Of a stretch of 64,000 bases of DNA, positions 1-59,559 are shown in pieces. The DNA comes from Cyanidioschyzon merolae. Lineage: Eukaryota. The notes beneath the pieces are model-generated. The model searched no databases. It was not told where the DNA came from and saw only the letters and a list, made by a program, of their open reading frames with translations. Location of the stretch: the NCBI GenBank assembly GCA_000091205.1, contig AP006489.2. The stretch is one strand, 5' to 3'. A program made the position numbers and the translations under genes. Within the stretch, counting starts at the first letter, position 1; every line of letters starts with the position of its first letter.

Positions 1-95
1 CTAGCCTTCAACACCTCATCTTCCTAGACGCTGCTTTTGCGGCAACCGCGGCTGCCGCATGACCTAACCATAGCTCATGTTCACTACCTCTCCGA

Positions 96-2032: not shown

Positions 2033-2053
2033 GTGTGTGTGTGTGTGTGTGTG
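2033..2053. repeat. (GT)n microsatellite, about 10 units
   Basis: Direct reading of gtgtgtgtgtgtgtgtgtgtg. Confidence 0.95.
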
Positions 2054-2713: not shown

Positions 2714-3943
2714 CTACGGAGCAGCAAAAGGCTCCGAATCATCGGGACCACGCCGATGCCACCTGTTTTGTGGATAGAGAAGCAGCGCCTGTCGATCCCA
2801 CGAAGCGATCATACCGGGTTTTGCTTCGTCCTTCCAGATCTCCGTCGAACACGGTGGCCTGATGCAGCGCACCAGCACCGTCTCGTTCACTGTTTCGTAC
2901 GAGTCTTCGAGGCCGTACCCGCTGTCCTGGATGAGCCAGTCTCCGGGTCGCCACAGCTGACTCGCGTGCCGCAGCGCACAGTTCTCTGGTCGGCCGACGC
3001 TAGCATAAAAGTTGAAACCAGGTGCTTCGTGGCGGTAATACACCGCCTGCTGCTGCTGCTGCTGCTGGCGGTTGCGTTGACCGTACCCATAACCGAGGCG
3101 AGCCATATGGTATCGCCAACATCCTTCGATGTGCCGCAACATGGCAGCCGGCGCCCGTTGTAGCGCTGGACTGCCCACGAAATGAACGGGGAAAAGCACC
3201 GACGCTCGACAGGGGTAGGTATGGGCGTAACGCAGGAGCAACTCTGGTGGAGCACTCGGGAACGCGGCATGCAGATACAGAAGGTGCCACAGAGCGGTCT
3301 GGTCTAGACTCGCTTGCGGCCACTGGGTGCCCAGTGCGATCCAGTTCCGCACAAATTGCAAGGATTCCGGTGTATTACGGAGGAGAAACGCTCCCGAGTT
3401 AATCTCGGGTCCATCGTGAACGACCACGTAGTGCTCTGGACTGATTCCTTGCAAGAACGTCTGGACCGGAATCGAAAAGTTCGTGATCACTGCATCCACA
3501 TCAACGTACATGAACCAGTCGTACGGAGCGTCTTGCTTCAGTAGACGCTCAAGTGCGAAGAGGCGATTGTAGTGCGGTGGTAGAGGTTGTCCTGGTTCGG
3601 CGTGTCGCTCGGGTGTCGCAGCGACCTTCAACCAGTGATACGGATAGGAATCGAGTAGAAAATCGACTGTCGCTGACCATTTCTTGGCGTAGAGAACTTT
3701 GTTCTGAACCGCGTACGCAAACCGTCGGGCATACGCTGCCGTTGTCGTGCTGAGGAGCGCCACCCGAGGCAGCTGGGTTTCGTGCCCAGCCCCAGGCCAA
3801 AGTGCTCTTGGAGTGCGTTTGCGCGTCAGGGAATAACTACTGCGACTGATGCCTAATTGACATCCTATCCAAGAGCCGATAAGACAACAGGCAACAACGA
3901 AGGCGACGGTCCGACCGACTCGACGGCGTAGGTGACGCTTCAT
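2714..3943 (-). CDS. Glycosyltransferase family 34 (GMA12/MNN10-like alpha-1,6-mannosyl/galactosyl/xylosyltransferase), type II membrane protein
   Basis: GT34 signature blocks NKVLYAKKWS and DWFMYVDVDAVITNFSIP (DxD) with HDGPEINSGAFLLRN. Probable start at Met of MKRHLRRRVGRTVAFVVACCLIGSWIG (signal-anchor) at 3943. The ORF stays open upstream to 4189. Contains (CTG)7 (3047-3067) encoding poly-Q. Confidence 0.8.
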   Translation of the reverse strand: MKRHLRRRVGRTVAFVVACCLIGSWIGCQLGISRSSYSLTRKRTPRALWPGAGHETQLPRVALLSTTTAAYARRFAYAVQNKVLYAKKWSATVDFLLDSYPYHWLKVAATPERHAEPGQPLPPHYNRLFALERLLKQDAPYDWFMYVDVDAVITNFSIPVQTFLQGISPEHYVVVHDGPEINSGAFLLRNTPESLQFVRNWIALGTQWPQASLDQTALWHLLYLHAAFPSAPPELLLRYAHTYPCRASVLFPVHFVGSPALQRAPAAMLRHIEGCWRYHMARLGYGYGQRNRQQQQQQQAVYYRHEAPGFNFYASVGRPENCALRHASQLWRPGDWLIQDSGYGLEDSYETVNETVLVRCIRPPCSTEIWKDEAKPGMIASWDRQALLLYPQNRWHRRGPDDSEPFAAP

Positions 3944-13922: not shown

Positions 13923-16718
13923 TCAGACGGACTCTCCGCGCCGATGCCGCGAAGCATTCGCCGTCGAGTCCTCGGTCAGATGTTGCGCTTGCAGTCGAGC
14001 CTCGAGCCTTGAGAGCTCGCGCTTCTCCAAGAGGTCCCTGATCACTGCAGCGAGCTCAAAATCCAACTGTGCAGCAGCTTCATGCATGTGCGTACGAAGC
14101 TGCTCATCGTCCAAGGCGCCAAGACCCGCCGGTAACCTGCCCCCGAGGCCCATTTTCGAACTGGTCTTCTCTCGTTTCAGATAGGGTTCATGCTTCGCAA
14201 GAATCGAACGCGGCTCCATTCCATATTTCGCGTTGTAGGCTGCTTGTATAGCTCGCCGTCTTTCGGTTTCTGAGATCGCTCGCTGCATCGAGTCCGTCAG
14301 CGTATCCGCGTAGAGCGTCACGGTGCCGGCTACGTGGCGCGCCGCACGCCCCATTGTCTGAATGAGTGCGGTCTCGCTTCGGAGGAATCCTTCCTTGTCC
14401 GCGTCGAGAATGGCCACCAGACTGACCTGAGGGAGGTCAAGGCCTTCCCGAAGAAGGTTCACGCCGACGATCACGTCACAGCTTTCTGTGCCAAGGGCTG
14501 AGAGCACCTCTACCCGCTCCAGAGCGTTCAGTTCGGAATGCAAGTAGCTGACCCTGAAGCGCTGTTCGCGGAGGTAACGGCAGAGTTCTTCAGCCATTCT
14601 CTTCGTTAGGGTGGTAATCAGGGCTTTCTCTCCTCGCTGTACTCTTTGGCGAAGCGAAGCGGCTAGGTGTTCGATCTGGCCCCGGGTAGGGTGCACCTGA
14701 ATCCGCGGATCAAGCACATGCGTCGGGCGAATCAACAACTCCGCCAGGGCACCGTCGGCGAGACACAGTTCGAATGGGCCCGGTGTAGCTGAAACAAACA
14801 CGCAGCGATGGACCTTGGTCCAGAACTCTGACTCACGAAGCGGTCGATTCTCCAGAGCGCTCGGTAGACGAAAACCGTAACGTACCAGGTTTTCCTTGCG
14901 TGCGCGATCTCCATGGTACATACCCCGTATCTGCGGAACCATAACATGGCTCTCATCGATGATGAGTAACCATTCGGGGGGAAAGTAGTCCAGTAGGCAC
15001 TCGGGTGGTACATCTGGTGCCCTGCCCGAGAGGTGCATGGCATAGTTCTCGATTCCCGAACAGTAGCCGTGTTCGCGCAACAGCTCAAGGTCCTGGGTCG
15101 TGCGTCGCTCCAGACGCTCGGCCGCGTGGTGCTGCCCTCGCTCGCGGAGCCGTTTGCAGCGGCTTTGTAGTTCAGCGGCGATAGCCTGGAGCGCCCGCTC
15201 GCGCTCCTCCTTGGGCGTCACGAAGTGCCGAGCGGGATACAAGGTCACATGGGAGCTGTATTCCACATCCGCTCCCGTTTCGCGATCCACATACCTGAGT
15301 TCGACAATTTGATGATCCTGTACATCGATGCGGAGTAATAGCTCCCGCTCATCCCACGACGGTAGCGAAACCTCCACCGCCGTATCCCTGATCCGAAACG
15401 TACCCGGATCGCGGGGATCGGCTCTGCGTTCGTAGAGCATGGCCTCCAGTTGTAAAACGATCTCGTCGAGACTGCAGACATCACCGAGTTTAAGGCTTGT
15501 CGCTGCTCGAAGGTACGTTGACGGCATGCCGAGGCCGTAGATGCACGATACTGACGAGACGATGATCACATCGGGGCGCTCGAACAGGGCGCGCGTGGCA
15601 GCATGGCGATAACGATCAATGTCCTTATTGATGCTTGCCGACTTTTCGATGTACGTGTCTGTGGCACTGTTGTAGGCCTCTGGCAGGTAAAAATCATAAT
15701 AGCTCACGAAAAACTCGACTGCATTCGATGGGAAGAATCCCCTCAGCTCACGATACAGTTGTGCTGCGAGCGTCTTGTTCGGTGCGAGTACCAGGGTTGG
15801 TCGTCCGTATTGCGCGATCACATTTGCGATAACGAAGGTTTTGCCAGTGCCCGTAGCGCCTTTAAGGACCTGGAATCGTTTCGAGGGCAAACGATCTACG
15901 AGGCACTGAATGGCTGCAGGTTGATCAGCGGCAGGTGTGTAGGGCGCGACCAGCTGGAAACGCTGATCAGGCAGTCGCGCAAAATGCTCTGCCAGTGTCT
16001 CCTGCTCTGCGCTTCTGCGAGGCGATATCGAAACGTCTGCGGGTATCGGTAGAATTTTGGTCAATGGAACAATTTGATCTGCGTCGTCGGAATAGCGGAA
16101 GATGTGCCAGCCGTGCTGTTCGAGGTGTTGTTGAGCGTCCGCGTCCAGTCGCCCGCGTCGAAGCAGCAGCGCCAGTTGTGTACAGAGTCGCCACATCACT
16201 GCATGCCGTGCAACAAGTCGCTCTGCGTCGGGTCTTTTCAGTGGCAGCTTGCGTTCTATGACAATGACCGCCATACTATCGTCCAAGTACAGTTTCATTG
16301 ATCGGGAGAAGCGAGCGTTTTTGGTGATCGCGTGCTCCGCACTCCCATTGCACACCTCTTGTACGAAGCGAACAAGTCGCTCAAATGGAGGCCGCTGCTC
16401 GGTCGCCACACGCGGATCCAAGGGACGCCCGTGTGCAGTTGCTGCAAGCACCGCTCGGCTCGCATCGTTCGTTGCGTTGCAGACGAGCGTCAGCGAAGGC
16501 CAGCGCCCGGCGCCGTTGGCGAGCAAGCGCATCACGACTGGGCCGTGGAACACCCCACCACCGATCCGCAAACGACACAAACATCCCGCGTTCCTCGCTA
16601 AACCTGACCTGCATAATCCTAAATTCCCTATGAGGAACATACACGCAAGCGCGTCAAAGCACAGACGAGAAGAGTTCAACACAGACACACACTCGACAGA
16701 GTTCACGCTGGTGCGCAA
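13923..16718 (-). CDS. uvrB: Full-length bacterial-type excinuclease ABC subunit B (UvrB) with a roughly 245-aa N-terminal extension
   Basis: Collinear with E. coli UvrB end to end. FQLVAPYTPAADQPAAI. Walker A GATGTGKTF. LVLAPNKTLAAQLY. FVSYYDFYLPEAY. IYGLG. HGYCSGIENY. IDESHVMVPQIRGMYHGDRARKENLVRYGFRLPSALENRPL. FVSATPGPFE. ILDADKEGFLRSETALIQTMGRAARH. C-terminal UVR domain LDFELAAVIRDLL. The N-terminal extension has a hydrophobic stretch ALACMFLIGNLGLC followed by an R/S/A-rich region. The exact start is uncertain. Confidence 0.9.
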   Translation of the reverse strand: MRTSVNSVECVSVLNSSRLCFDALACMFLIGNLGLCRSGLARNAGCLCRLRIGGGVFHGPVVMRLLANGAGRWPSLTLVCNATNDASRAVLAATAHGRPLDPRVATEQRPPFERLVRFVQEVCNGSAEHAITKNARFSRSMKLYLDDSMAVIVIERKLPLKRPDAERLVARHAVMWRLCTQLALLLRRGRLDADAQQHLEQHGWHIFRYSDDADQIVPLTKILPIPADVSISPRRSAEQETLAEHFARLPDQRFQLVAPYTPAADQPAAIQCLVDRLPSKRFQVLKGATGTGKTFVIANVIAQYGRPTLVLAPNKTLAAQLYRELRGFFPSNAVEFFVSYYDFYLPEAYNSATDTYIEKSASINKDIDRYRHAATRALFERPDVIIVSSVSCIYGLGMPSTYLRAATSLKLGDVCSLDEIVLQLEAMLYERRADPRDPGTFRIRDTAVEVSLPSWDERELLLRIDVQDHQIVELRYVDRETGADVEYSSHVTLYPARHFVTPKEERERALQAIAAELQSRCKRLRERGQHHAAERLERRTTQDLELLREHGYCSGIENYAMHLSGRAPDVPPECLLDYFPPEWLLIIDESHVMVPQIRGMYHGDRARKENLVRYGFRLPSALENRPLRESEFWTKVHRCVFVSATPGPFELCLADGALAELLIRPTHVLDPRIQVHPTRGQIEHLAASLRQRVQRGEKALITTLTKRMAEELCRYLREQRFRVSYLHSELNALERVEVLSALGTESCDVIVGVNLLREGLDLPQVSLVAILDADKEGFLRSETALIQTMGRAARHVAGTVTLYADTLTDSMQRAISETERRRAIQAAYNAKYGMEPRSILAKHEPYLKREKTSSKMGLGGRLPAGLGALDDEQLRTHMHEAAAQLDFELAAVIRDLLEKRELSRLEARLQAQHLTEDSTANASRHRRGESV

Positions 16719-18661
16719 CTGTCATGTCCGCCTGCCAACGGATTACAGGAGCGCGCTCCTTTGACGGGCGATTTGCTTTGCGTTTTCTCTCGGCGATCAA
16801 AAGTTTACTTTGACCATGCATCCCAGATTGCGGGATGCGTATTGGCTTTCGGAAAAGCGTCCTTAGGGCTGCGCAACACTACCAAGTTCCATGACGTAGA
16901 CTTGCATTCGGATGTACTGGACGTTTAGTACGTTCTATCGTGTGCCGAGTGCCTGCATTACTGCACCAGCCGTATCGCATATGCCTCTGTTACGGATCCA
17001 GCACGGAGACGGAACGGCTTTGCCATAGAACAGAGGGCGTCGGCTCGAGGTATGATTCATTCAACATGGAATCGGGATTCATTAGCCTGCTGGGAGCGTG
17101 CAAGCTGCGCAGACACACATGCTGCCTGCGACAGCGCGAAGCGACATACGAGGCGGATACCACGCCGACCAGGGCGATGCCCAGACGCAGCCTGTCCGCT
17201 GGCAGTCCCAGATTACACTGCGTTCCGGATGAGCTGCTGACATTTCCCTACAGGACTCGCCACTCGCGAGGGCATCGTGCACTAGCCCGATAGACTCGTC
17301 CGGCTCGCGGAACTTTCTGCCTAGAAAGAAGAGTTTCGAGGATACGGAAAGCGTTTCCCCCTCCTAGCGTTCTTCGTAGTGGGGGCGGGAAATCTTTATC
17401 TCGTTGCTGGTGAATCTTGAGTCTCTGTTCTTTGCCCTGAATAGCGCGCTCGATACGTGCGCCTTTATATTTGGCAGGAATTGAACATGTCCTGCTTCTC
17501 ATCGTTGAAGAGAAGCGCAATCCTGATCATTATCGTGTTGCAGCAAGGTGCAATGTGGATTTGCATGAAAGTCGTCGCAAAGTATAGTTGTGTATCTCAA
17601 TTGGGTTTCAATCTTTACATTTGTGGATTCAAGTGCTTTTTCGCTGTGTATAACAAAAACGTTCAAAGTGCGTTCTCTTTTGCAAAAGGAAAGAAAGGAA
17701 AGTTATGGAAGTAGAAGTGGAGGATCCTGCAGGCCTGGTGTCGGCGGCTGCCGCAGAGAACAAAAAACATTTCCGGCACCATAGGAACGGGAAAAGACGA
17801 AGAATCAACGGGAACGAGGGAGGGCGGACGTCAGACGCCGCACGAAAAACGACACTACGACGAGATGTTCGTGAAAGCTTTTCTTTCAAGCCGTATCGAG
17901 GATCCCTACAAGCAACCGTTGCAAGAGGTCATCAGAAACCCTGTCGAATCATATTCCAGGAGTGCTCAAATCTCCTGTTTAGGACTGATGCATATGACGA
18001 GGGAGATGTATCGCGGCGTGACGCGCATAGAAAGAGTCGAGGTTCCGGAGGAATTTTCTAACGAGACCTTCATCCGCCACTTGATGCTTGGCACGGGGGA
18101 AACCTCGAAGAGAAATGAGCGAGCGCATGACGTACAGGAAAATGACACCGAATTCCGCTTCAACGGTACTCGATACAAGTATGACGGGGACATTCACACC
18201 TACGGGGCGATCTAGTACCCCAGGATCCTGAGGAACCCCATGATCGTAAACTTCGACCGCATCATGATACGCTCCGTCTTTGCACTGTAACCGGGCCTCT
18301 CTCGCAAAGGGATATGGGCTATCGTCGATGGCATCACGAACGATAGTGACAATGAAGAGGAGACCGAATTCGCCGAAAAGAAGGCATCACCCGGGAGCAT
18401 GAATGAAGCTTCTGTGCTCCGTGCGGCTCTTCGAGAGCACCGTACGGGTTGGCGTTAGCCAATCCTGCAGCAAAGGTATCAGAGATGAAAAGAGATGCTA
18501 TCCCCTCATCCTGCGCTATTTCGTGTTCCTGAACCGAGAGCTCGAACGCAAGGCGGAGATGGAGCTGGATGTGGAAGCAAGTGAAAAGTCGGTGAAACGG
18601 AAGGCTGCGCTTCTGAAGAGGCGCTTCAACCTCGTTCTGGAATGCAAAAGCAAGTCGCGCT

Positions 18662-19887
18662 TTGTGGCTAGCGATTCCAGATTCCTTCGCTGCTCCAAGG
18701 AGATCTGTCCGAAATTCGATGTTCATAACAAGGAATTCACGGGAGAAAAACGGTGAGACTCATCGGAAGAATATCTTCGATTTCAAACGTCTCAAAACGA
18801 GCAAGAAAAAGGTATTCACGGTGACGATCGACAGCGATGGGGTATCCATATGTGTACATTATCGGCGGTTGAAGGCGGATCGTCCAATTGTGCCTTCGGC
18901 TTCGCCCGCGGCGAGGCACGAAGAAAACACGGAGGCGGGCCCTGGATCGTATAACCCCCAGAAGAACGACATCGTGGCAGGCGCAGACCCCGGGAACACG
19001 TATATCATAACCATCGCAGTGCCCAGGGGTGCGAAAGATGGTATTGCTGGCGGCTTGCGTCAGAAAGCCATGAGTCTTTTAAAGCACTCAAAAGCGAGAT
19101 ATTACCGAGAGTCTAGGATAATTCATGCGAGGAAAAAAGTGTGACGTAGAATGCAGCCGGGAAGGCGCACCTGGAGGCGATCAGCCAGGTGACGGGCCGC
19201 CGAGCGGACTCTGAAGCTTTTCAGGAATTCATGAAAACTCATGCTGCTCACTAGGAGGAGCTGTGGAGAGATTACGCAAAGCTCCGGTTGGCTCGTCAGC
19301 GTATGAATCTCTACTGTGGGAAGCAACATGCGTTCGCCAACTTTTTCAATGAGTTGAGCGCCCTGGAGGAGGACGAGAGTCAAACGCTCGTAGTAGCATA
19401 CGAAGCAGGGCGCTCGATGAATCAAAAACGGAGCATACCCGCTCCGTAAACCACAGCGTACAAGGAGTGTGCACAGTGTTTTGTCATAATACCGATAGAT
19501 GAGTTCCGAACGTCATATACGGACCATGAACGGGGGTATACACTTCACCGGGTCGAGATGGAAAAGTGCCAGAGGAGCCCTGTGAAGATATAGAAAAGTA
19601 AGGAGAGCTGACAGAAGAGCAAAATGGAATGGAGGGCGAAAGTTCCAGGGCTACTTGCACTGGTGAGTACAAGCGGTGGCAAGAAACGTATGGAGTTTAT
19701 GAATCTTGACTTTAACGCCGCTATCAATATCAGACGAAGTGCGATTCTGAAGACGGGACCTGCAGAGCTGACGAGAGCCAACTTTGTGGGGCAGCCAGTC
19801 AAAGTCGAGTTTTACAAGGAACAGCCGAAGCCGATATCACTCGAGCAGTCGAAAAAGGCTCGGAGGCGTCTACGCGTCGGTGTATAG
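18662..19887 (+). pseudogene. Decayed TnpB/Fanzor-like (IS605 OrfB-type RuvC nuclease) gene, copy b
   Basis: Ordered motifs in frame 1 and 2. RuvC-I-like [17 protein letters not shown] (about 18990). TS/zinc-finger motif KECAQCFVIIPIDEFRTSYTDHERG (about 19465-19540; compare TnpB VSPYFPSSQLCHDCG). RuvC-III NLDFNAAINIRRSAIL (about 19700-19745; compare ISDra2 DRDENAALNIRREAL). Spacing matches TnpB. Interrupted by at least three in-frame stops (about 19238, 19448, 19590) and a frameshift near 19145. Lies in an AT-richer island. Confidence 0.65.
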
Positions 19888-32305: not shown

Positions 32306-35300
32306 CGCACCGCCACCTATAGCCGCAGGTCGGAGTCACTACCACAAAGCACCCTCTGTGCTTTTTCCTTTCAGTTAAGGTCCCCTAGTCGTCAAACGCT
32401 CGGCTGTCAGTGCCCAAAGCCGAAATGCAGGACGCAAGCGGGGATGTCCGCAACAGCACCAGCACCGACTGCGGTGTCAGCTGCCTGCCTACAGTGTTGC
32501 CCGCGGGATGTGCACTTTCGTACTGTGCTCACGTTGTGTATGCTGCGCAGTGACGGCGTTGGATGCAACAGAGAAAAGTGCAACTGAGCAAACATGTTCC
32601 AGGAATTTTTTCTTGGAATCAGAACTAGCGTACTTGTCGCAGTGATCGACAGGCTCGCTGTTATCCACAGTGGTGGACGGTAGCGCGAACTGCCTCTGCG
32701 GATGGATATCGCACGGAACGAGAAGCGCTGCTTGCATGCACGTACGCTTTCCTAGGACCCGAACTCAGAGATGGTACTTGCGACGCATGGTAAGCTCTGG
32801 ATATGGAAGGCAGTGCCCGCCAAACCTAACTAGCTGCTTCACCAGACGACGATCAAATTCTATATTGCGAGTGCTTGGCATCCGGATTCATCCCGAAACA
32901 ACTCGATACCCAAAGCACAGAGATTGCTTCAACAAGTGATCCAGATGCGAGCGCTCATGCTCCAGTGCGGGAGCAGCAAGTACAGCTACAACGTCTTGCC
33001 ACGCGTCGAAGACGAGCCACTTGCCCTAAATGCCGAGAGCGATGCGCAGGTAGGTATCTGCCCTGACGTATGTGTGTGCAGCGTCCATGAAGACAGCGCT
33101 GTGCGTTGCGCGGCTGGAGTGTCTCTCGGAGACGTGCTTTTGATCACATACGTAGAATCAGGACTGTAGGCGTCATACACAAAGCACTGAAATGTGGAAT
33201 ACATGTATCATCATGATCTTTTTGACTTTGTTCGTCGTTGTCTCGCGGAGGTATTGGACAAAGGGAATGAATCCTGTCGATAGGGGGAAACGCCGCGGAA
33301 AGAATTCATGCTGGGGCTGCTCGCTTGCGAAAAACTGGTTCACTCGCCCAAGTCAGTCATTCTGGCATTCAGCACGTACTTGAAGCGAGCTTCTCGTGGC
33401 GCTGATGCCGAACCTCTTGCACCCAAAACGGAACCTGTCGTTCTCTATTTAGACAAATGTCTGACTGGTTGTCCATACATTCCCGTCCGTTATTCCTTTG
33501 TGAAAACCTCTCAAAGAAGCCACAGGACGCGACTTTTTCCTACTAAGGATACGAAAAGTGACGAAGAGGCACTGATGGACATAGGGAGAAAACGTGCTTC
33601 TACGGGACTCCGTCACGCGTTGAACAGCACACGAACACTGTTGTACTGAAACGCAAACGCTTCCCACACAATGGACGAGTGTTCGTCGCCCTGGACGTTA
33701 CGCGATTCGAGAAAAACGCTCGACCTGTATACGGTACTCAAAGAGGTTTAGAACGCTGTCCGTACAGAAGATGCGAGCGAGCATGACAACAATAAAAGTC
33801 CTAGCGGCTCTTCAAAGGTGCAATCGCCTACATATCACCAGGCGGAGAGGATCAATCGACATCTCATTGTTCGTTGACGCGTGCTTCGTGGCTTCTCCTT
33901 CCTCGGTGCTGCTGTCCTACTCTCGGACAAGGTCGCCGTCCATCAAGTAAAAGCGGTCATGCGGCACCCGACATACGTTGGCGTTGAGCTGATCTTCGTA
34001 CCAGCTTCTGCGTTCTGGTGCAATCCAGTCGAAAACATCTTGTCTAGTGCGAAGCGCCGGTTTTCGCGCCCACGGATCAATAGATTGGTCAGTTGCACCC
34101 GCGACGCTGAAAGCTGCAGGACGCCACTGAGGATCGCGTAGCTTTCTAGTCGAGGAAGGCTCGCCTAGCACTCATCGCCTCGACGCACCTCGTCAAGCAA
34201 ATGTGCGTAAGTTTCTCGGACACACGGCATCGAGCTGTCCTTTTTCCACTCGAATTTTCTGATGAAATTTCCCTGCGACAGTACAACGGATATTCGTTAG
34301 AAAGCACGCAACTCGATCTGATGTAATGATCAGAGGTTTGGAGGCACACTTCCCAGCATACCTTCAGACGTGGACGCGTCACGTTGTCAATTGAGGTAAA
34401 CGATACAGCACAGGTGTGAAAAATTATTGAACAAGACTCAAAAAGCAAATCCATTTGCAGGTCAATGTCGAGCGATTCATGAGGTCTGTCTCGTGAGCGT
34501 TGTACGCTCAACTCGCTGGTCCAAGAAACTGAAGACTACTTCAAGCGGATTTCACGCTTCAGAGAGTATATGAGTACCCAAACTTAGCATGCGGACAATC
34601 TTATGGACGCTTGCATAGCATTGCGCTGGGGTCGCCATTTGTTTCGGTTCGCGATGAGTGCAAAAAACTTGCATTCGCCAAGTTCCTCCATGGTTTCATA
34701 AAGGAAATAGCTGCTCAGTCGAGTTGATTTGCGGTTGCCTAGTGCGTATCACGTGGCGCAGCGCGCCACGGTCACGTTCCTGCTCCTTCGACGAGTCCAG
34801 CAAGCGACCCTGCATGATTCCCGTTGATGCGCTCCGAGCGACACAGACGCATCACGAGCACGGGCGGACATGGAATCTGGAATAGAACAAGCGTTTGAAA
34901 CAGCGCCGAATACACGAAATTGCAAACAATACGCTGAGCAAACCTCCGAAAGCAAGGCAATTGCATCCGTGACCCTCGCGTTGGTGGAACTCCGCCAACA
35001 ACAGTGCACGACAGCACGTTCTGCACGACGACCTGAACACCCCGGTCAGTATCCGAAAAACAACTTCACGTTTCCGGAACGTCCATTGGCTCTGTATTGA
35101 GCAAACGTTTCTAGTGATCAGGATGAACACAGAGTAGGCATCGTGCTGAAACACTGAACACTTTCAAAAAACAGTTAGTGTCTAGATGATAGGGCAATGG
35201 AATCCAGGAAAACTGTAGCGCCCTATACACGCACACTGGAAACAATGCCCCTGAACAATCACCCTTGTGCTCCATTATGGGATATCAAAGCGATCATTGC

Positions 35301-35633
35301 GAGTGATGCAGTGCTCCCCACGGAGTTGTCACAGCAAGCCTGTGGCGTGACTGCCAATGCCGTGCACGCACGCAGACACCACGTTGCAGGGCATTCGCGC
35401 ATGCATTGCAGCGCGCGCGCGCGCGATAGAGACGCCCTGGCAGCTCGATGGGCGACAAAAGTCGCGTCGACGCGTCACGAAGCGGTACTGCGACGCCTGC
35501 CTCCGCATCAAGAACTGGAGCACAGCATCGCGTTGCGTTGCACGACACTGTGTAGAGCGCAGAGCGGTTGCTGTGCAGCTAGCGTGCCTGTCGCTCCTGA
35601 CACTGACGCCCTGGGCTGCTTCAGCGTCTCCGT

Positions 35634-45956: not shown

Positions 45957-47660
45957 ATGACATTTATAGTGCCCTCGCGAGGAGTTCGTGCCCCACAAAA
46001 GCACGCAGTGTTGCAAGCGAGGCGTCCGCGGGGACCCGGTCCCTTGACGAGGTGCTGGCGCTTGGCACCCCTGCGGGCGAGCCTCGAAAGGCCGCGCTCT
46101 GTGACCCCTGCCGACGACGACAACCAGGTGCTCGGCTCGACCAAAGTACCGACTCGGAAACGGGAACCCACAAGTGCATACAGTTACATCGACAGGGCAC
46201 GCATCCGCGTCAAGGGAGGCGACGGCGGTGACGGGTGTGTAGCTTGGCGTCGAGAGCGTGGCAACGCACGCGGTGGACCCGCTGGTGGCAACGGTGGACG
46301 AGGCGGTGACGTCTACCTCGTGGCAGACGCCGGACTAAATACTCTAGTCAAGTTCGGAAGTGTGGTTCACTTCACGGCTGAGAACGGAGAAAAGGGTCAG
46401 CCGAAAAACTGCACTGGCGCCGATGGCAAGGCGCTGGAGCTGCGAGTCCCGCTCGGTACAGTTGTCTACGACGCAGAAACGGGAGCGCTCTTGGGCGATC
46501 TTGACCAGGTTGGTGCGCGGTTGCTGGTCGCACGGGGTGGTCGCGGTGGTCGCGGCAACGCAGCCTTCAAAACGGATCGAAACCGAGCGCCCGTTATCCG
46601 CGAAAAGGGTGAACCCGGCACCGGCTGCTGGCTTCGTCTGGAACTGCGCGTGCTCGCCGATATCGGCATTATAGGGTGTCCCAATGCTGGCAAATCAACT
46701 TGGCTTGCAGCGGTGAGCAACGCGCGACCAAAGATTGCTGACTATCCCTTTACCACTCTGGTTCCGAATCTGGGCGTCTACGCTGAGAACGTTGTCCTTG
46801 CGGATATACCGGGGCTTTGCGAGGGCGCCCATCTCGGGCGAGGGCTTGGTATAGGATTTCTCCGCCATATTGAGCGCTGCCGCATGATACTGCATTTGGT
46901 TGCAGGAGATGCACCAGATCCTCTCTATGATCTACAGGCTATTCGTTTGGAGTTGGCGTTGTTCAATCCGCGTCTGGTCCAAGACAAATTGCACGTCGTG
47001 CTCTTTACGAAGATGGATTTGCCTTTGGCCCAGCAGCGTTGGAATGATGCTTCTTTCCGCGAGGCGTTCCAGAAGGCAGTGGGGCACCGCCGGATTGCCG
47101 CCGTATCAGCAGTTACGGGCCAGGGTGTAGAGGAAACCATGCAGCGTGTATGCAAGCTCCTGGAGAAAATCCCGCAACCTGACCGCTTAAGCTCGCTGCC
47201 TGATGCATCTCCTGGTGTGCTAGAGCAATCGCGGAGCCCAGCAGCCGCTGATACCTTTCGTGGTGATCATGACGCCATCGGTGCGAGCGTGGATGGCACG
47301 TTCCGTATCCAAAAGGAGCGAATGGCAGATGGCCAGCGGCGCTGGCGCATACTGGGTTTGCCCAAGCTCGAAAGACTCGCTGTTATGACGGACTGGGCGT
47401 ACCCAGAGGCCGTGGATCGCTTTCAGCGAGTACTTCGAGCGCTGGGGGTCACGGAGGCGCTCTCGCAGAGCGGCATTCGCGCCGGTGATGTTGTCGTCAT
47501 TGCGAATATTGAATTCGACTATACCCCCGATGATAATGTGTTTTACCAGAATGCCCTAGAGGACGGTGTGGACTTGTTTAAGGACACAAGCGATGTCGAG
47601 ATCGCTGTGGATGAGGATCACGATTATCGTGAATGGAGCGAAAACGTTTCGCAATCATAG
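45957..47660 (+). CDS. OBG: Obg-family GTPase (bacterial/organellar type with C-terminal OCT domain) with roughly 85-aa N-terminal presequence
   Basis: Obg fold YIDRARIRVKGGDGGDGCVAWRRE...GGNGGRGGDVYL...ARGGRGGRGNAAF. G domain GIIGCPNAGKSTWL (G1), YPFTTLVPNLGV, ADIPGL (G3), LFTKMDL (G4). C-terminal OCT domain DGTFRIQKERMADGQRRWRILG...GDVVVIANIEFDY. The N-terminus MTFIVPSRGVRAPQKHAVLQARRPRGPGP is Arg/Pro-rich and not Obg-like. Confidence 0.9.
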   Translation: MTFIVPSRGVRAPQKHAVLQARRPRGPGPLTRCWRLAPLRASLERPRSVTPADDDNQVLGSTKVPTRKREPTSAYSYIDRARIRVKGGDGGDGCVAWRRERGNARGGPAGGNGGRGGDVYLVADAGLNTLVKFGSVVHFTAENGEKGQPKNCTGADGKALELRVPLGTVVYDAETGALLGDLDQVGARLLVARGGRGGRGNAAFKTDRNRAPVIREKGEPGTGCWLRLELRVLADIGIIGCPNAGKSTWLAAVSNARPKIADYPFTTLVPNLGVYAENVVLADIPGLCEGAHLGRGLGIGFLRHIERCRMILHLVAGDAPDPLYDLQAIRLELALFNPRLVQDKLHVVLFTKMDLPLAQQRWNDASFREAFQKAVGHRRIAAVSAVTGQGVEETMQRVCKLLEKIPQPDRLSSLPDASPGVLEQSRSPAAADTFRGDHDAIGASVDGTFRIQKERMADGQRRWRILGLPKLERLAVMTDWAYPEAVDRFQRVLRALGVTEALSQSGIRAGDVVVIANIEFDYTPDDNVFYQNALEDGVDLFKDTSDVEIAVDEDHDYREWSENVSQS

Positions 47661-49741
47661 AGGGTGAATGCGTACCCATTCGGAGACGCCTTCCAGCCGT
47701 GTTCGACCGGCCGCCTGCTATCGGTTTCCGTTTTTCCAGGCACACCTCGAGCTTGAGAGGCTACCTCACAAAGTTAGATCACTTGAGCTCCTCGGGTATC
47801 GTCTTCGGCACCACACATTGTCTGATATTCGTAGCAGCGTAAAGTCTCGTTTCACGAACTCTATGGGTTTCTCGTTGCTGGTGGAACTCATCCGCGAAAG
47901 GATAGCTAAAATGCGTGCCGCTACAGCCTAGTTATCGTGTCGTCGGGCAAACACCTTGTCTCACTTGTCTCCCCTTTTACTTTTGCTGCCTCATCACTTG
48001 CTCTTCTTCGCTTGATGGTTAGTGAGATGCGGATTTATTTCGCTTGTTTCCGACGACCGGGGATGACTGTCCTCCGGGATCCTTGAATCTCACGCCCATA
48101 CCCTTTGCTTGGATTTTTTATTTCTTAGAAATGAACGCATTTCTGTATGCCCCTGTGTGAGGGCGTTCCCAGATGCACGATAGCTCGCACAAGAAAGACG
48201 ACATGTGCCCTGGGTTGTTAGCGTGCAGAACGCTCAAGCGATTCGCCCAGTGGAGCGATTATTAATTTCACAATAGAAAACATTTCTTATACGTGGTTGA
48301 AACATGCAGCGTACGGAGGATAGAGAAGCAGCTCTACTCCTGGGACAGATTCGACACAAGCTCGAACGCTAGGGGAATGGTGAAATACCACGCTCTCCAA
48401 CAGAAGGACGTTGCCAGATGTCAGGGAAAAGTCTTGTGTAATTCGAGCAAGTGGCTGATGCAGTTGTTCAGGCCTTCTCTACGAGCGAAACTGAGCCGCC
48501 AAATGAATCCACCGCAGCTAGAACAGATGGTGTCGTCGTCGTCCAGTTGGATCGCACATAAAACGGGCTCCATCTCCGAGAAAAAACATTCACGCTCCGA
48601 CCATTTCGTCCGAAGGAACTATGATCGAATGAAAAAACAAACCGACATCCCTGTGCTTCATAGCGATCGCGAAGTTCCAGGTACGCTGTTGATGCGTTTT
48701 TGGTAAACAATGGCCGTACATGAACTAAGACTTTTTTTCGACTGTATCCCAGTGTTTTTCGGGACCAAACGAACTAGATGTTGCGAAACAGAGACGCCCA
48801 TGATGGCTGCTGCGATCGTTGCTTTTGCTTTCCGTAAGGTAGTCAGCAGGTCGTTTTCCTACCCTTGACCGCAAGAAGTCTTGAATAATATCGGTATTCG
48901 GCGCAAAGCGCATCTGCTTGTTTCTTGCAGGGTTCGCCAACCACCTGAGTACTGTGGTATGACTGACACTGAGGATTCATGCGGCGCTCCTTATACAGTT
49001 CAGTAAAGAATCTATCCTACAGGGAATTCGTCCAGGAGGTATAGAGCGCATTGCATCCTGCCCTCGATCACCTGCTATCCACCGCAGCACAAGTGAAGCA
49101 AAACTGAGTTGTGAGACCTGAACAAGGTCGATCACCTGCAGCGGATTTCGTTCGTCCGACGCCTCTAAGATCGCATTGGTACGGGGACATGAACTTCGCG
49201 GCCATTGCTCGCCTGCGAACGGTATGATGCGTAGACCAAGTTCGTGTTCCAAGTCATGGTGATGGTCACGGTGATGCGTATCACAGAACGACCAGAAAGG
49301 GCCGGTGCGGCAGCCGCCGCCGCCGCCGACGACGACATCCGTCGGGAGACCCCTTCATGGCGTCAGTAGGTCTAGGCGGGACGACTCACGAGCGGAGCGA
49401 ATCCTAATAACTGGCTTTGCCTTGTTCGTAAAACGTGCGGGCATGAAATCTCGTATCTGAGGTTTTAATGAGCACGCCCCTGATTCTATGAAGGAAAAGC
49501 GGAACCGAATCGCGAGACTGAGCATCGCGGTCTGCCGCCGAGAGCATGCGACCGAGACAGCTTTCGTCCTGTAGACACTAGGCATCCACGTACACCGGAA
49601 AACAAACACGACTCCATTGGATGCAGTAACCAGTGCCTCGTTCACAGAAGCGTTTCGCGGTGCGCATCCATGCTATGCCGGCGTCGACGCTGAACGCGCA
49701 GCCTCCGTGCGCACTCCAACGTCGATAGCCATTTGCGTCGG

Positions 49742-53992: not shown

Positions 53993-54110
53993 TCGCGCAC
54001 GCACGCATACGCACGCACGCATACGCACGCACGCATACGCACGCACGCATACGCACGCACGCATACGCACGCACGCATACGCACGCACGCATACGCACGC
54101 ACGCATACGC
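53993..54110. repeat. 14-bp microsatellite (gcatacgcacgcac)n, about 8.5 units
   Basis: Read directly. It translates as [14 protein letters not shown] in the upstream-extended DXR ORF, so that part is not coding. Confidence 0.9.
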
Positions 54111-55713: not shown

Positions 55714-56270
55714 GAGAGCACCACGCTCGACCAGCTCGCCGACGATCCCTGGCCTGAGACGCATCGGCGGGAACGCTGTAGTGGCGATGAGGTGAACGAC
55801 TGCAAATCTCGATCGCTGGCTACGCTGCGGGTACTGGTCGTTGCCCTCACGAGAACTCGGACCGGATCTTGGCTTGTTGATGATGGGCATACAATGCTAT
55901 TGGACAACGACGGGATGGCATTCACCCAGAGGCCTGTTGTCGTCAACATCTGTCTTGGCCGTGTTCAGGAAGGAGCAACGCTCGCGCTGCAGCAAGCGGG
56001 GGTGCCTCTACACAATAGAGCCGTATCTAAAGCAGGACAGCATCGCTATGTCAACGCGGTGTCTCTCGCTTATACGTAGCACTATCGAAGAATGGAGCAC
56101 CATGCTGTGCCATCGATTGCTCGGGAAAAACGTTCCCGATGTGTAGATACATGGCGCTCCAGCTTTCTTTTATCGCCGAATCGTACCTGACCAGTACATT
56201 GATCCAGGGGAGAATGCAGTCCCCTCTCCCATTCATGGTCACCTTTTTTTAATCGAGGGTGTTCGGAATT

Positions 56271-57326
56271 TCAGCACACTGTCCGTACTGAATACAAAAC
56301 CGTTTCCTTGAAAGCGCGCTCGACTTTAGCTGCCGGACGCTCCCGAAGCATGAGACAGATCCGGATGTTGATTGAGGCGTTCGGCTCTTGGTTCGGACAC
56401 TGCTTTTCCGCATCGGTGCAGCGGAGCCTGACCATAGAAAGCCCCTCAGCTTCCGATTGCCACGCCATGTGACTTCCAGCCAGCTTACCACGCCTCATCT
56501 CACGCATCCGGCTCCGTTTCACGCCCTTCTTCTATACCTGTTTCAGCGTGCACCCGTGCTCGTGATCCGTGCACGTCGTCGTCTTGAACGCATCAACGCG
56601 AATCGTACAGAATCGGTTCCTGAACTCGTTGAAGGCTCTCGTGTAAGGAGCAAGCGTGCCGTCCCGGCGTGGCACTGTACGTCCAGCACCAGAGGATACA
56701 ATTAAGCGATACGATTCGTCGGTAATATCCGTTCCCAACTCATTGACCAAGTTATCGAATGCAAGTTTCTTGCTTCTGTACAACAGTGACTCTAGGCTAG
56801 CAGAGCGCTCTCTCGTGTACGTTTGCCAAATATCGTCCGTGCGAGTTCTTCGGACGCCCAGAAACGCGCTAGAAAAGGCGCACGATACATTCGCTGCATG
56901 CTCGATACAGCGCACAGAGCGTCGAGGTAGGTGCTGATATTTCCCTCCATCATTCCACTTGTTCATATGCGTCTTGGCCTCGCTCATGGCGGACGATCGA
57001 TCGTGCCGGGCCCTGGAAAGTTTGAATAGCGTGAACTGCTTTCGTAGCGGGTGTTTGGCACCGTTCTCTTGATTTTAGGGGTGCGGCGGCGACGGTGGCT
57101 ACGATGTTCTAATAAGCGGGGTCCACGCTCTTTACGGACTGAAGCTCTCTTCGTCTACCCTGAATGATTGAAGACGAGTCTCGTTTGCCGGTTTGATACT
57201 TTTTGGCCCCGGTGCGGTAGGATTTTCGTGAATCGCCGGGATAGCGCCGCGACGCGGCAAACGACTCCGAGAAGCACAAGTGCAAACCTCTGACCCGACG
57301 ATCAGACCGAATTGCGTCTTCTGCAC
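56271..57326 (-). pseudogene. Decayed TnpB/Fanzor-like gene, copy e (homologous to copy b, opposite strand)
   Basis: ORF 56532..56987 (-) contains KKLAFDNLVNELGTDITDESYRLIVSSGAGRT (copy b: KQHAFANFFNELSALEEDESQTLVVAYEAGRS) and the TS/zinc-finger motif RFCTIRVDAFKTTTCTDHEHGC. After a single in-frame TAG, the same frame continues (ORF 56271..56522) with RCTDAEKQCPNQEPNASINIRI (RuvC-III D.NAA.NI, degenerate). Upstream, ORF 57132..57326 (-) HENPTAPGPKSIKPANE parallels copy b [17 protein letters not shown]. It is further broken by a stop and a frameshift. Confidence 0.6.
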
Positions 57327-59559
57327 CGTGTATCAATTGTACTGTTGCACGCAAGCTTGATGAAAGAGTTCCGCAAGAATTTGGACGGTAGACAGTCCTG
57401 CGTCCCGAACTCCGAGGAAGAGCTGCTTGACGAGGCTCATCATGGCATGAGGAGCTAAGCAACTAAGCCTCGAGTCAGAAGCTACGGGATCCGTCATTCG
57501 CGTCCTGCATCCTGCATTTTGAAACATTCTCCATGTTTATTTTTCTGGATATGAGATCTTGACACTGCGTCCGGAATGACTCTACCGTTGGTTCCAGTGC
57601 CTGCTCGCCCCCGTCTTTGTCGATCTGTCTCGTTCTTGTCAGATAGAGTCTGCTCCATTTCTTTTTCTTGGCAAAGTGGCATGGATGGGTTCGCTAGACT
57701 CCACGTCCGTTTCTCCCTCGGGATACAGGCGCACTGGATGGATCCTGACACTGAAATCCATCCCCTCTTTGTGTGTACCACTCCTCACGCGCCGTTTCGT
57801 TGTCTTCTCCGATGCGAGCACAGCTGCGGACCGTGCGCACCGCTCCGCTGCCTCCCGCGAACGCGAAGAGAAGCGACACAGCACACCGGGGGCCGGCGAA
57901 GCCAGAGAGCAACGAATGGATGAACGGTTTCACCGATGCGAACGAGTGTCCCATTGATTTGAGAGGGTGAAAATAACGTTTGTCAACATCGAAGACGTCT
58001 TCGACTGGGTTGATCCATGGGCAATAGCACGATAAGGAGAGCAGCGCAACATGAATGTCGATTGTGCACTACGCAACCGTTCCGCATTGATCGAAAGCGA
58101 CGTTATCTAAGAACGGAACAGAAGAAGGCGGGAAGCTCAAGCTACGCTTCGTGTTTCTTGGATCGCTGAGCTACGAAAAGATCTGGTATGTATGTCGATT
58201 TGTAGGCGACCACACGATTGAATCGCTTCTAGTCCTGGTGGCCTCGTAACGGCCAATCGTACCTTGTTTGCGATCAGCGGCCCGCCAGTGTTTGAGTAGT
58301 CGTATTGAGGTCTACCGTTTTCGGTGCATACAGGCTCGGTGAATGCGACAAACATCCGTCTGTCCTGAGGTAAGCGTTCGTGCTTCAGTGCGACACCGAT
58401 TCTGAGCAGTTCTACAAGCGACACTTGTCATCGAAGCGCCTTGCTTTTTCTTTCCATCTGTGTCTCTTCATCACCGTTCGGATCTATATTATGCGAGCTT
58501 TATATTCTGTGGCTTTTCGACAGTATACCTAAAAGGACGCACCGCGTGCAATGGACTGACGAGCAGACAGTCACATGGGCAGTGTTTGGCGATTCTATCT
58601 TTGGGAGCACGACCTTCGGGCTATGCACGAACAGAAGCGTCATTCGTGCACCAGATGAGCATAGAGTGACTGACGCGTAAAAGCGATGCTCTTTTTCGTA
58701 GGCTGGTAATGACAGCATCCCAAATCTCAGCAACATTGCTTCGATCCACTGAATTCATTCCTTTTATTGAATACTTGCGAGAAAAACATACAAGAAGAAA
58801 TAGGGCTTGCTTTAGAGGGGTATTCCAGAGCGCATGGCCCCAGCTATAACGCCAGCGTTTCTCGATGTCGCCCTTGTGTCGATATCGCTGACCCGTTGCG
58901 TGCTGCCGGAGACAGACTGCTTGGAAAAAACGACCTCCATCGGTGCACATCTGCTTCATCCACGCAAAAATAAAATCGAACAGTTCCTCTGACCTACCTC
59001 GGACGTATGCGATGAAGCTTGGGTGCCTTTCCACTGTCAGCGACAAGAGTCCCCGTGGGCTCTTCTCTGAAGGATTCCTTTTTCGTTCGCTTGTCTCAGA
59101 CTCGAAATACTCTGGTCGTTTCTGTTCCGCAAGCTCCATCATCAGCAGTCGAAAGTCGTTGACGGCAGCGTGAATATCCCAAATTGGCAGCTTCAGGCTG
59201 TTTCTGACCATTTCGTGCACAGGCCAAAGCTGCGGTGGACTCTTCGCTTGCCGTGTTCATCTTCTTCCTACCAAGCCTCGATGTGCATTTCGCAGTGTTG
59301 ACACCTGGTGAGGTCAGATGTTCTCATGTGTCCGCCATCACTCGTCATCTGTGGACCGGACTGTGGCGCGTAAAGACCTGCTTCATCGCACGGCACATGC
59401 TCTTGAGTGATGGCGACGGCTCGATTCGATACCCTCTCGCTTTTGCACGCCTGTCGCCGTACCCTACGATTCCGGGCTTCTTCTCGACGATACCGTCGGC
59501 GAGTGCGCTGGCCGGCGCACAACCAAGCGCACGTCTTTCTATTTGATGGAGGATCTGTG

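What the first reader, a model, noticed from the sequence alone, without database searches (positions are those of the whole stretch)
56271..57462. Second TnpB/Fanzor-like copy (e), inverted relative to copy b, with an almost continuous reading frame through the zinc-finger/RuvC-III region
On the minus strand one frame runs from Met 56987 through KKLAFDNLVNELGTDITDESYRLIVSSGAGRT and the TS motif VDAFKTTTCTDHEHGC. It is broken by a single TAG (56529-56531), then continues in the same frame through RCTDAEKQCPNQEPNASINIRI (RuvC-III). The TAG is immediately preceded by cag|gtatag, so a short intron is an alternative to a nonsense mutation. Copy e shares about 55-65% amino-acid identity with copy b over more than 100 aligned residues: KKLAFDNLVNELGTDITDESYRLIVSSGAGRT vs KQHAFANFFNELSALEEDESQTLVVAYEAGRS; APYTRAFNEFRNRFCTIRVDAF vs AP*TTAYKECAQCFVIIPIDEF; HENPTAPGPKS vs [11 protein letters not shown]. 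So the two are old paralogues of one family lying 37 kb apart in opposite orientation. The upstream RuvC-I region is degraded (FRVDEES instead of G.D.G).
Basis: partly seen in the sequence, partly recalled or inferred. Interest (0 to 1): 0.7.

Follow-up and report, generated by a model that had tools for sequence, protein, structure and literature searches.

The report
Dead Fanzor1 gene in transposon relic
The region is a decayed, non-functional copy of a Fanzor1 (eukaryotic TnpB-like, RNA-guided nuclease) gene inside an old transposon remnant in a hot-spring red alga; this kind of element has been known in these algae since 2013, so the finding is real but ordinary.

Summary
The reading frame and motifs exist. 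Copy e (minus strand) matches a profile of Fanzor1 proteins at E=1e-39 and the published Cyanidioschyzon merolae Fanzor1 consensus CMe-1 at 37% identity over 252 residues (E=1e-36). The family profile hits the solved Parasitella Fanzor1 structure (E=3.7e-11).

Several details are wrong:
- The TAG lies at 56532-56534.
- e and b are 31% identical, not 55-65%.
- The TAG is a one-base change from the family's GAG with no alignment gap, so it is not an intron.
- "FRVDEES" is not a supported RuvC-I motif.

e is a pseudogene. It has 8 in-frame stops, an internal loss of about 230 codons that includes RuvC-I, the alternative catalytic Glu changed to Ala, and the RuvC-III Asp changed to Glu. It also has the highest SNP density of its neighbourhood in three strains.

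The relic is larger than reported (about 56038-58861). Its upstream third looks like a decayed IS630/Tc1-mariner transposase. Its closest relative in the window is another relic at 33161-35342, not copy b. Copy b is a full-length copy of the known CMe-1A family.

The host is a Cyanidioschyzon-like red alga. Interest is low.

The parts
56307..57062 (-). Best-preserved part of the Fanzor1 pseudogene. It is equivalent to CMe-1 residues 443-692 and runs from just after RuvC-I through the RuvC-II region, the degenerate zinc-finger region and RuvC-III. It is 252 codons in one frame, with one stop and no frameshift.
   Evidence: Family HMM E=1e-39. BLASTP vs the CMe-1 consensus gives 37% over 252 aa, E=1e-36. 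nhmmer vs the CMe-1A DNA consensus gives E=8.7e-25. Nucleotide identity to CMe-1A by codon position is 53/60/35%.
56532..56534 (-). In-frame TAG. It is a nonsense mutation of the family's GAG (Glu in RVEMEK).
   Evidence: Colinear alignment across the stop. Codon comparison: GTC GAG ATG in CMe-1A vs GTA TAG AAG in e. No variant at this codon in two further strains 99.3% identical to the window.
56589..56591 (-). Ala codon (GCG) at the position of the alternative catalytic Glu (family VDEFRTS, e VDAFKTT).
   Evidence: Alignment. The role of the alternative Glu is taken from PMC10530073. Relic d carries the same GTTGATGCG.
56385..56387 (-). Glu codon at the RuvC-III catalytic Asp position (family NRDFNAAINIRR, e NQEPNASINIRI).
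   Evidence: Alignments; coordinates read.
56688..56690 (-). Gly at the canonical RuvC-II position (family AYGAGR, e SSGAGR). This is the normal Fanzor state, not a loss.
   Evidence: Alignments. Jiang et al. 2023, PMC10530073.
57063..57340 (-). Degenerate stretch of 86 codons in the same frame with 4 stops. It stands in for family residues about 126-443, which implies an internal loss of about 230 codons. RuvC-I should be here, but no motif is recognisable.
   Evidence: No significant match. Gap in the two-domain alignment. Stops listed.
57341..57521 (-). Remnant of the Fanzor1 N-terminal region (family residues about 67-125), in the same frame as the C-terminal part.
   Evidence: phmmer with P0243 gives E=4e-4, and a 3-sequence profile gives E=2.7e-4. 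BLASTP vs CMe-1 residues 79-124 gives E=0.016.
57930..58861 (-). Probable relic of an IS630/Tc1-mariner (DDE_3) transposase, upstream of the Fanzor relic and on the same strand. It carries stops and at least one frameshift. Motifs: VPFLDNVAFDQ ... CYCPWINPVEDVF.
   Evidence: NCBIfam IS630 E=0.0012 for e and 2.9e-6 for its homologue d. Pfam DDE_3 E=0.16 for e and 1.4e-5 for d. All scores are below the curated cut-offs. e-d DNA homology over this block is E=5e-55.
56038..56306 (-). 3' end of the relic: the last degenerate codons plus the non-coding tail. This is where a guide (fRNA/omega RNA) scaffold would be expected in an active element.
   Evidence: Homology with d runs to 56038. Fold z-score is -2.9. 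No Rfam match. Conservation of structure could not be shown.
33161..35342 (+). Copy d, the sister relic. It has the same order (transposase relic then Fanzor relic) but is more decayed, with deletions of about 415 and 250 nt relative to e.
   Evidence: nhmmer. Global alignment shows about 55% identity. DDE_3 and IS630 hits. Weak Fanzor HMM hit at 34763-34924.
16795..19882 (+). Copy b, a full-length but frameshifted copy of the known Fanzor1 transposon family CMe-1A.
   Evidence: nhmmer places CMe-1A consensus 5-3093 on window 16795-19882, E=0. Protein identity is 65% over 355 aa, E=9e-158. The coding region is split over several frames.
47681..48142 (-). Internally deleted CMe-1A copy. Only consensus 869-1061 and 2859-3085 remain.
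   Evidence: nhmmer. HMM hit to the C-terminal end.

Best explanation
Copy e is the dead remnant of a Fanzor1 gene. Fanzor1 is the eukaryotic TnpB homologue; active members are RNA-guided RuvC DNA endonucleases carried by transposons.

The remnant belongs to a relic of about 2.8 kb (about 56038-58861, minus strand). Its upstream third is most likely a decayed IS630/Tc1-mariner DDE transposase, followed on the same strand by the Fanzor1 gene. This is the order seen in known Mariner-Fanzor1 elements.

e does nothing today:
- The frame carries 8 internal stops.
- About 230 codons, including RuvC-I, are missing.
- Two of the catalytic positions are substituted.
- It evolves at the neutral rate.

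e comes from a lineage separate from the CMe-1A family to which copy b belongs. That lineage diverged from CMe-1A while still under protein-coding constraint and died later.

Shown: homology, family assignment, pseudogene state, extent, and the sister copy d. Inferred: the transposase identity (weak profile hits), that transposase and Fanzor formed one mobile unit, and the former RNA-guided nuclease activity (by homology only).
For: Family assignment:
- HMM of 21 relatives vs the window gives E=1e-39 for 56307-57062 in a single frame.
- e vs the published CMe-1 Fanzor1 consensus is 37% over 252 aa, E=1e-36.
- The family profile hits solved Parasitella parasitica Fanzor1 at E=3.7e-11.
- The family shows the Fanzor signature of Gly at canonical RuvC-II plus a downstream Glu.

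Pseudogene state:
- 8 internal stops.
- TAG is a one-step change from GAG, with a colinear alignment.
- VDEF has become VDAF and RDFNAA has become QEPNAS.
- No recognisable RuvC-I, and about 230 codons are missing.

Neutral evolution (three strains 99.3% identical):
- The relic has 36 variable sites in 2824 bp (12.7/kb). The DXR and RNA polymerase I A49 genes have 5.4/kb and intergenic DNA has 7.9/kb.
- 18 in-frame SNPs split into 12 non-synonymous and 6 synonymous, and none of them falls in a stop codon.

Separate lineage:
- Identity to CMe-1A by codon position is 53/60/35%.
- phmmer against 1.84 billion representatives finds nothing closer than about 40% except e's own ORF.

Extent and sister copy: nhmmer e vs d gives E=5e-55, 3.3e-22 and 1.6e-37, and the matches end at 58861 and 56038.

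Transposase:
- IS630 and DDE_3 hits fall on the same profile segment in both e and d.
- The known Mariner-Fanzor1 element PUl-1 has the same gene order (PMC3627910).
Against: - The transposase hits are below the curated cut-offs (18-27 bits against 100 and 28.6) and cover only about 55 residues of the catalytic domain.
- No terminal inverted repeats or TA duplications were found for e or d.
- The PUl-1 Mariner transposase shows no pairwise similarity to e or d.
- A profile of the e and d transposase relics finds no solved transposase.
- One stop in 252 codons with no frameshift is well preserved for a pseudogene, so the death of the C-terminal half may be fairly recent. A residual role cannot be strictly excluded from sequence alone.
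- The SNP sample is small (18 in-frame sites).
Confidence: 0.85

Rival explanations
1. e is a live gene whose TAG is removed by a short intron (cag|gtatag).
For: A GT follows CAG just before the TAG. The frame is open for 151 + 83 codons on either side.
Against: - The residues immediately after the TAG keep aligning with the family with no gap, so an intron would delete homologous residues.
- TAG sits opposite GAG in CMe-1A.
- Seven further stops and a loss of about 230 codons lie upstream.
- Catalytic residues are lost.
- All large genes in the window are uninterrupted ORFs.
- The published CMe-1 gene has a single exon (PMC3627910 supplement).
Confidence: 0.02
2. e, or its 151-codon ORF at 56532-56987, is a domesticated nuclease-dead Fanzor derivative that still binds RNA or DNA. 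This would be analogous to bacterial nuclease-dead TnpB-like repressors (that analogy is from my own background knowledge).
For: - The C-terminal half is unusually well preserved, with 1 stop and no frameshift in 252 codons.
- The catalytic Glu-to-Ala change is shared with the old sister copy d, so inactivation may predate their split.
- The 3' flank folds better than shuffles, z=-2.9.
- The ORF is conserved at 99% in other metagenomes.
Against: - SNP density is the highest in the neighbourhood, and 12 of 18 in-frame SNPs are non-synonymous.
- There are 8 stops and no start codon for a full product.
- The N-terminal and RuvC-I parts needed for the fold are missing.
- The 99% conservation only reflects strains that are 99.3% identical everywhere.
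Confidence: 0.03
3. The transposase-like block and the Fanzor relic were never one mobile element. Either they are two unrelated insertions that were copied together by a segmental duplication (producing e and d), or the 57930-58861 block is not a transposase at all.
For: - No TIRs or target-site duplications were found.
- Transposase scores are sub-threshold.
- The related CMe-1A family has no transposase and no TIRs (PMC3627910).
Against: - Homology between e and d stops at both ends of the relic and does not run into flanking host genes.
- Two independent libraries hit the same catalytic segment in both copies, with the characteristic ...NP(V/I)E... motif.
- Gene order and spacing match known Mariner-Fanzor1 elements.
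Confidence: 0.2
4. e is simply a very old copy of the same CMe-1A family as b, and all its divergence is neutral decay.
For: The protein architecture is the same, and e matches the CMe-1A consensus at DNA level at E=8.7e-25.
Against: - Third codon positions are far more diverged than first and second positions (35% against 53% and 60% identity), which indicates divergence under coding constraint.
- By my rough estimate, neutral decay to 37% protein identity should leave many more than one stop, plus frameshifts, in 252 codons.
- CMe-1A copies carry no transposase block.
Confidence: 0.1

Closest known systems
CMe-1 / CMe-1A, the Fanzor1 transposon family of Cyanidioschyzon merolae (Bao & Jurka 2013, PMC3627910)
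   Same: - Same host group: the window's GCL protein is 77% identical to that of Cyanidiococcus yangmingshanensis.
- Same protein family and motif order. e is 37% identical over CMe-1 residues 443-692.
- Copy b in the same window is a true CMe-1A copy.
   Different: - e is too divergent to be a CMe-1A member, and its divergence pattern shows a separate lineage.
- e and d carry a transposase-like block upstream. CMe-1A lacks one, and its class is reported as unknown.
- e is internally deleted and dead.
Mariner/Tc1-Fanzor1 elements such as PUl-1 of Pythium ultimum (PMC3627910) and the Fanzor1c-Mariner/Tc1 associations of Jiang et al. 2023 (PMC10530073)
   Same: The order is transposase then Fanzor1 on one strand with a short spacer. 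The DDE_3/IS630-type catalytic motif is present.
   Different: No TIRs or TA duplications are recognisable. There is no pairwise similarity to the PUl-1 transposase. Both genes are decayed.
Structurally solved Fanzor1 nucleases (Parasitella parasitica Fz1, PDB 9cf0; Guillardia theta Fz1, PDB 9cer)
   Same: The family profile matches PpFz1 in two stretches that include the DPG (RuvC-I), DEFRTS and RD..A motifs, E=3.7e-11.
   Different: Similarity is remote and only at profile level. The G. theta match is not significant (E=1.1). e lacks the catalytic residues and cannot be an enzyme.
Prokaryotic TnpB (IS200/IS605, IS607)
   Same: Same RuvC-type architecture by descent, as established in the literature.
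   Different: No Pfam or NCBIfam TnpB model hits e, b or intact family members. The host is eukaryotic, and the RuvC-II Glu is rearranged.

Membership tests
Fanzor1 (eukaryotic TnpB homologues) | Significant sequence homology to established Fanzor1 proteins | tested here: met
   e vs the CMe-1 consensus: E=1e-36, 37% over 252 aa. Family HMM E=1e-39. Family profile vs solved PpFz1: E=3.7e-11.
Fanzor1 (eukaryotic TnpB homologues) | RuvC-I catalytic Asp (G.DPG motif) | tested here: not met
   No recognisable motif. The region is replaced by 86 degenerate codons with 4 stops. The family has GADPGNT.
Fanzor1 (eukaryotic TnpB homologues) | Rearranged RuvC-II: Gly/Pro at the canonical Glu position plus an alternative Glu downstream | tested here: not met
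   The Gly is kept (SSGAGR), but the alternative Glu is Ala (VDAF against VDEF). The definition is from PMC10530073.
Fanzor1 (eukaryotic TnpB homologues) | RuvC-III Asp in the RD.NAA.NI motif | tested here: not met
   e has NQEPNASINIRI. The motif is recognisable, but Asp is replaced by Glu and Arg by Gln.
Fanzor1 (eukaryotic TnpB homologues) | Intact open reading frame | tested here: not met
   8 internal stops and an internal deletion of about 230 codons.
Fanzor1 (eukaryotic TnpB homologues) | Conserved structured guide RNA (fRNA/omega RNA) at the 3' end of the element | tested here: inconclusive
   - No Rfam hit.
- 8 CMe-1A-type 3' ends give no covariation support; the covariation term is +1.9 kcal/mol.
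- e's 3' flank folds at z=-2.9, but it has no alignable partners except d.
CMe-1A transposon family (Repbase, C. merolae) | DNA similarity to the 3169-bp consensus along its length (copies are about 80% identical to the consensus) | tested here: not met
   For e, only consensus 2187-2997 aligns, weakly (78.8 bits). For b the test is met: consensus 5-3093, 2053 bits.
IS630/Tc1/mariner DDE transposase (Pfam DDE_3, NCBIfam NF033545) | Profile match above the curated cut-off that covers the DDE catalytic domain | tested here: inconclusive
   For e, IS630 gives E=0.0012 (18.3 bits, cut-off 100) and DDE_3 gives E=0.16. For its homologue d the values are E=2.9e-6 and 1.4e-5. Only the C-terminal roughly 55 residues of the domain match.
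IS630/Tc1/mariner DDE transposase (Pfam DDE_3, NCBIfam NF033545) | Terminal inverted repeats and a TA target-site duplication | tested here: not met
   No convincing inverted repeats at the ends of e or d. This is expected after long decay, so it is weak evidence against.

The most novel reading that the evidence does not exclude
The two relics e and d may be fossils showing that the Fanzor1 lineage of cyanidiophycean red algae first travelled as cargo of an IS630/Tc1-mariner transposon. The descendant family CMe-1A has been 'unclassified, no TIRs' since 2013. On this reading it later became a transposase-less element that still keeps its Fanzor1 ORF.

A corollary is that the hundreds of CMe-1-like genes seen in hot-spring metagenomes could be a pool of heat- and acid-adapted RNA-guided nucleases.
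Probability: 0.35. Interest if true: 0.35.

Novelty: new member of a known kind. Interest (0 to 1): 0.18.

Why it matters
It matters little on its own. e is a dead copy of a transposon-borne nuclease gene whose family was described in this algal group in 2013.

Three modest points are useful:
- It corrects the annotation: this is a pseudogene with no intron, and the relic is about 2.8 kb.
- It shows that the window holds two distinct Fanzor1 lineages, CMe-1A (copy b and a deleted copy) and an older lineage (e and d).
- The older lineage appears to be linked to an IS630/Tc1-type transposase. If confirmed on better-preserved copies, this would suggest an origin for the still unclassified CMe-1A family.

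Intact relatives in hot-spring metagenomes could interest people looking for thermostable Fanzor nucleases, but that does not depend on copy e.

Tried and rejected
- Pfam and NCBIfam scans of the e and b Fanzor translations, and Pfam scans of intact family members: no TnpB or Fanzor model hit. The precomputed label on relatives is only DUF8286.
- Word-indexed homology search with e: no hits.
It was rerun on the stop-free 56532-57062.
- Terminal inverted repeats for e and d: none convincing.
- PUl-1 Mariner transposase against the six-frame window: nothing.
- Profile of the e and d transposase relics against solved structures: only chance-level hits.
- Rfam on the whole window: no match.
- Consensus folding of eight CMe-1A-type 3' ends: no covariation.
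- Intron hypothesis: rejected on alignment colinearity.
- Domestication hypothesis: rejected on SNP density and the non-synonymous to synonymous ratio.
- The idea that e is a decayed CMe-1A copy: rejected on codon-position divergence.
Full report
**What is at the coordinates**

The ORF from Met 56987 has 151 codons and ends at a TAG. The same frame then runs on to the TGA at 56271-56273. Copy b lies about 37 kb away on the plus strand.

**Host**

The window is eukaryotic nuclear DNA with long intron-free genes. These include RING, Myb, histone deacetylase, a UvrB-like gene, KIN17, flavin monooxygenase, glutamate-cysteine ligase (GCL), Obg, an acyl-CoA synthetase, DXR and RNA polymerase I A49.

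The GCL protein is 77% identical to that of Cyanidiococcus yangmingshanensis, 59% to Cyanidium caldarium and 44% to Galdieria. The exact sequence occurs only on JGI metagenome contigs. The host is therefore a Cyanidioschyzon-like thermoacidophilic red alga that is not among the named reference proteins.

**Family assignment**

Pfam and NCBIfam do not recognise e, b or intact relatives. A homology search with copy b returned 118 proteins, almost all unnamed metagenome proteins about 60% identical and up to 593 aa long.

A profile of 27 of them hits the solved Parasitella parasitica Fanzor1 (PDB 9cf0) at E=3.7e-11. The match falls in two stretches that include the DPG, DEFRTS and RD..A motifs.

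The literature search then showed that this family is already described. Bao & Jurka 2013 (PMC3627910) reported the Fanzor1 family CMe-1A in Cyanidioschyzon merolae. It has about 150 copies, a 3169-bp consensus and a 734-aa single-exon protein. It has no TIRs, and its class is unknown.

- **Copy b** is a full-length CMe-1A copy. Consensus 5-3093 aligns to window 16795-19882, and the protein is 65% identical over 355 aa (E=9e-158).
- **Copy e** matches a 21-member family HMM at E=1e-39 over 56307-57062 in one frame. It matches the CMe-1 consensus protein at 37% over 252 aa (E=1e-36).

The Fanzor reading is therefore correct. The claimed 55-65% identity between e and b is not: it is 31% over 240 aa.

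**State of the gene**

- **The TAG.** The alignment runs straight through it with no gap. The TAG lies opposite GAG (Glu) of the family's RVEMEK, a single G>T change. An intron would remove homologous residues, so that idea is rejected.
- **Other stops.** Between 57797 and 56274 the same frame carries 8 internal stops.
- **N-terminal remnant and deletion.** A segment of the family's N-terminal region (residues about 67-125) is still detectable at 57341-57521 in the same frame (E about 3e-4). Only 86 degenerate codons separate it from the C-terminal block, where the family has about 318. About 230 codons, including the RuvC-I GADPG motif, are therefore missing or unrecognisable.
- **Catalytic residues.** Fanzors have Gly or Pro at the canonical RuvC-II Glu position and use an alternative Glu downstream (Jiang et al. 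2023, PMC10530073). The family shows this pattern (AYGAGR ... VDEFRTS). e keeps the Gly but has Ala for the alternative Glu (VDAF), and Glu for the RuvC-III Asp (NQEPNAS).

**Evolutionary behaviour**

A metagenome scan found the same locus in two other strains that are 99.3% identical over 8 kb.

| Region | Variable sites | Density |
|---|---|---|
| e relic (2824 bp) | 36 | 12.7/kb |
| DXR gene | 7 | 5.4/kb |
| RNA polymerase I A49 gene | 7 | 5.4/kb |
| Other intergenic DNA | 15 | 7.9/kb |

None of the variable sites falls in a stop codon. Of 18 in-frame SNPs, 12 are non-synonymous and 6 synonymous. This is neutral behaviour, although the sample is small.

The divergence between e and the CMe-1A consensus is concentrated at third codon positions (identity 53%, 60% and 35% for positions 1, 2 and 3). 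e therefore descends from a lineage that separated from CMe-1A while still coding and died later. It is not just a worn CMe-1A copy.

A full HMMER scan of 1.84 billion representative proteins found nothing closer than about 40% identity apart from e's own ORF.

**True extent and neighbours**

DNA profile searches show that e is homologous over 58861-56038 to another relic, d, at 33161-35342 on the plus strand (E=5e-55, 3.3e-22 and 1.6e-37). Identity is about 55%, and d has extra deletions. The homology stops at both ends and does not enter host genes.

d, not b, is e's best match in the window.

The upstream block (e 57930-58861, d 33161-34104) gives hits to the same C-terminal catalytic segment of two models:
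- NCBIfam IS630 transposase: e 0.0012, d 2.9e-6.
- Pfam DDE_3: e 0.16, d 1.4e-5.

The motifs are CYCPWINPVEDVF in e and ASAFWCNPVENIL in d. The scores are below the curated cut-offs, and no TIRs were found. I therefore rate the transposase call at about 0.75.

The order (transposase then Fanzor1 on one strand) matches known Mariner-Fanzor1 elements such as PUl-1.

e and d share the Ala codon at the alternative-Glu position. The nuclease may therefore already have been inactive in their common ancestor.

**How it works**

Active relatives are, by homology, RNA-guided RuvC endonucleases whose guide is encoded at the 3' end of the element (PMC10530073). e itself has no function.

The 3' flank of e folds somewhat better than shuffled sequence (z=-2.9). 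There is no Rfam match, and eight CMe-1A-type 3' ends show no covariation. No claim about a guide RNA can be made.

**Verdict**

This is a real but ordinary feature: a decayed member of a known kind, in the host group where that kind was first described. The only mildly new point is the possible link of an older Fanzor1 lineage to an IS630/Tc1-type transposase.

Noticed in passing
window 16795-19882 (+): Copy b is a full-length copy of the published CMe-1A Fanzor1 transposon of Cyanidioschyzon merolae. Its coding region is split over several frames with stops, so it is also a pseudogene. Its AYEAGRS motif is a Gly-to-Glu mutation of the family's AYGAGR.
   Followed up: yes
window 47681-48142 (-): Internally deleted CMe-1A copy that retains only the start of the coding region (consensus 869-1061) and the 3' end (2859-3085). 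It lies about 20 bp downstream of the Obg GTPase ORF (45957-47660).
   Followed up: partly
window 33161-35342 (+): Relic d is the sister of e, with a clearer IS630/DDE_3 transposase remnant and a more decayed Fanzor part. It lies just upstream of the glutamate-cysteine ligase gene.
   Followed up: yes
L003 4070-4072, L007 4474-4476, L002 1760-1762: Three closely related CMe-1-like proteins from two different genomic loci (92-94% identical to each other) share the same in-frame stop just before 'VRALHEKHPF'. This suggests that copies spread from a progenitor that already carried the stop, or that the stop is read through.
   Followed up: no
L008 701-3273 (-) and 3906-6431 (+); L007 1429-4330 (-) and 3847-7392 (+): CMe-1A-like copies occur as head-to-head inverted pairs. 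In L007 the two copies overlap at their 5' ends.
   Followed up: no
L010 1789-2092 and L007 2479-2783 (CMe-1A consensus 2117-2196): A unit of about 78 nt just upstream of the RuvC-I motif, encoding the KHEE.KKEA.PATQEV.. repeat, is tandemly repeated a variable number of times in different family members.
   Followed up: no
protein P0240: A 4853-aa predicted protein has 46 separate stretches matching residues 11-44 of the e query. It is probably a tandem array or a mis-predicted gene built from a Fanzor fragment.
   Followed up: no
window 13923-16718 (-): A bacterial-type UvrB-like helicase gene (UvrB, UvrB_inter and UVR domains) lies in this eukaryotic nuclear window. It may be organelle-targeted or horizontally acquired.
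   Followed up: no
window about 54026-54080: The alignments with the two other strains break in the N-terminal extension of the DXR ORF, close to the simple repeat [14 protein letters not shown]. This may be a repeat-length polymorphism.
   Followed up: no
L003 814-2710 (-): A reverse-transcriptase (RVT_1) gene sits immediately upstream of one CMe-1-like copy. About 1 kb of sequence upstream of the copy (L003 2313-3365) is shared with locus L002, so another repeat family adjoins some copies.
   Followed up: no
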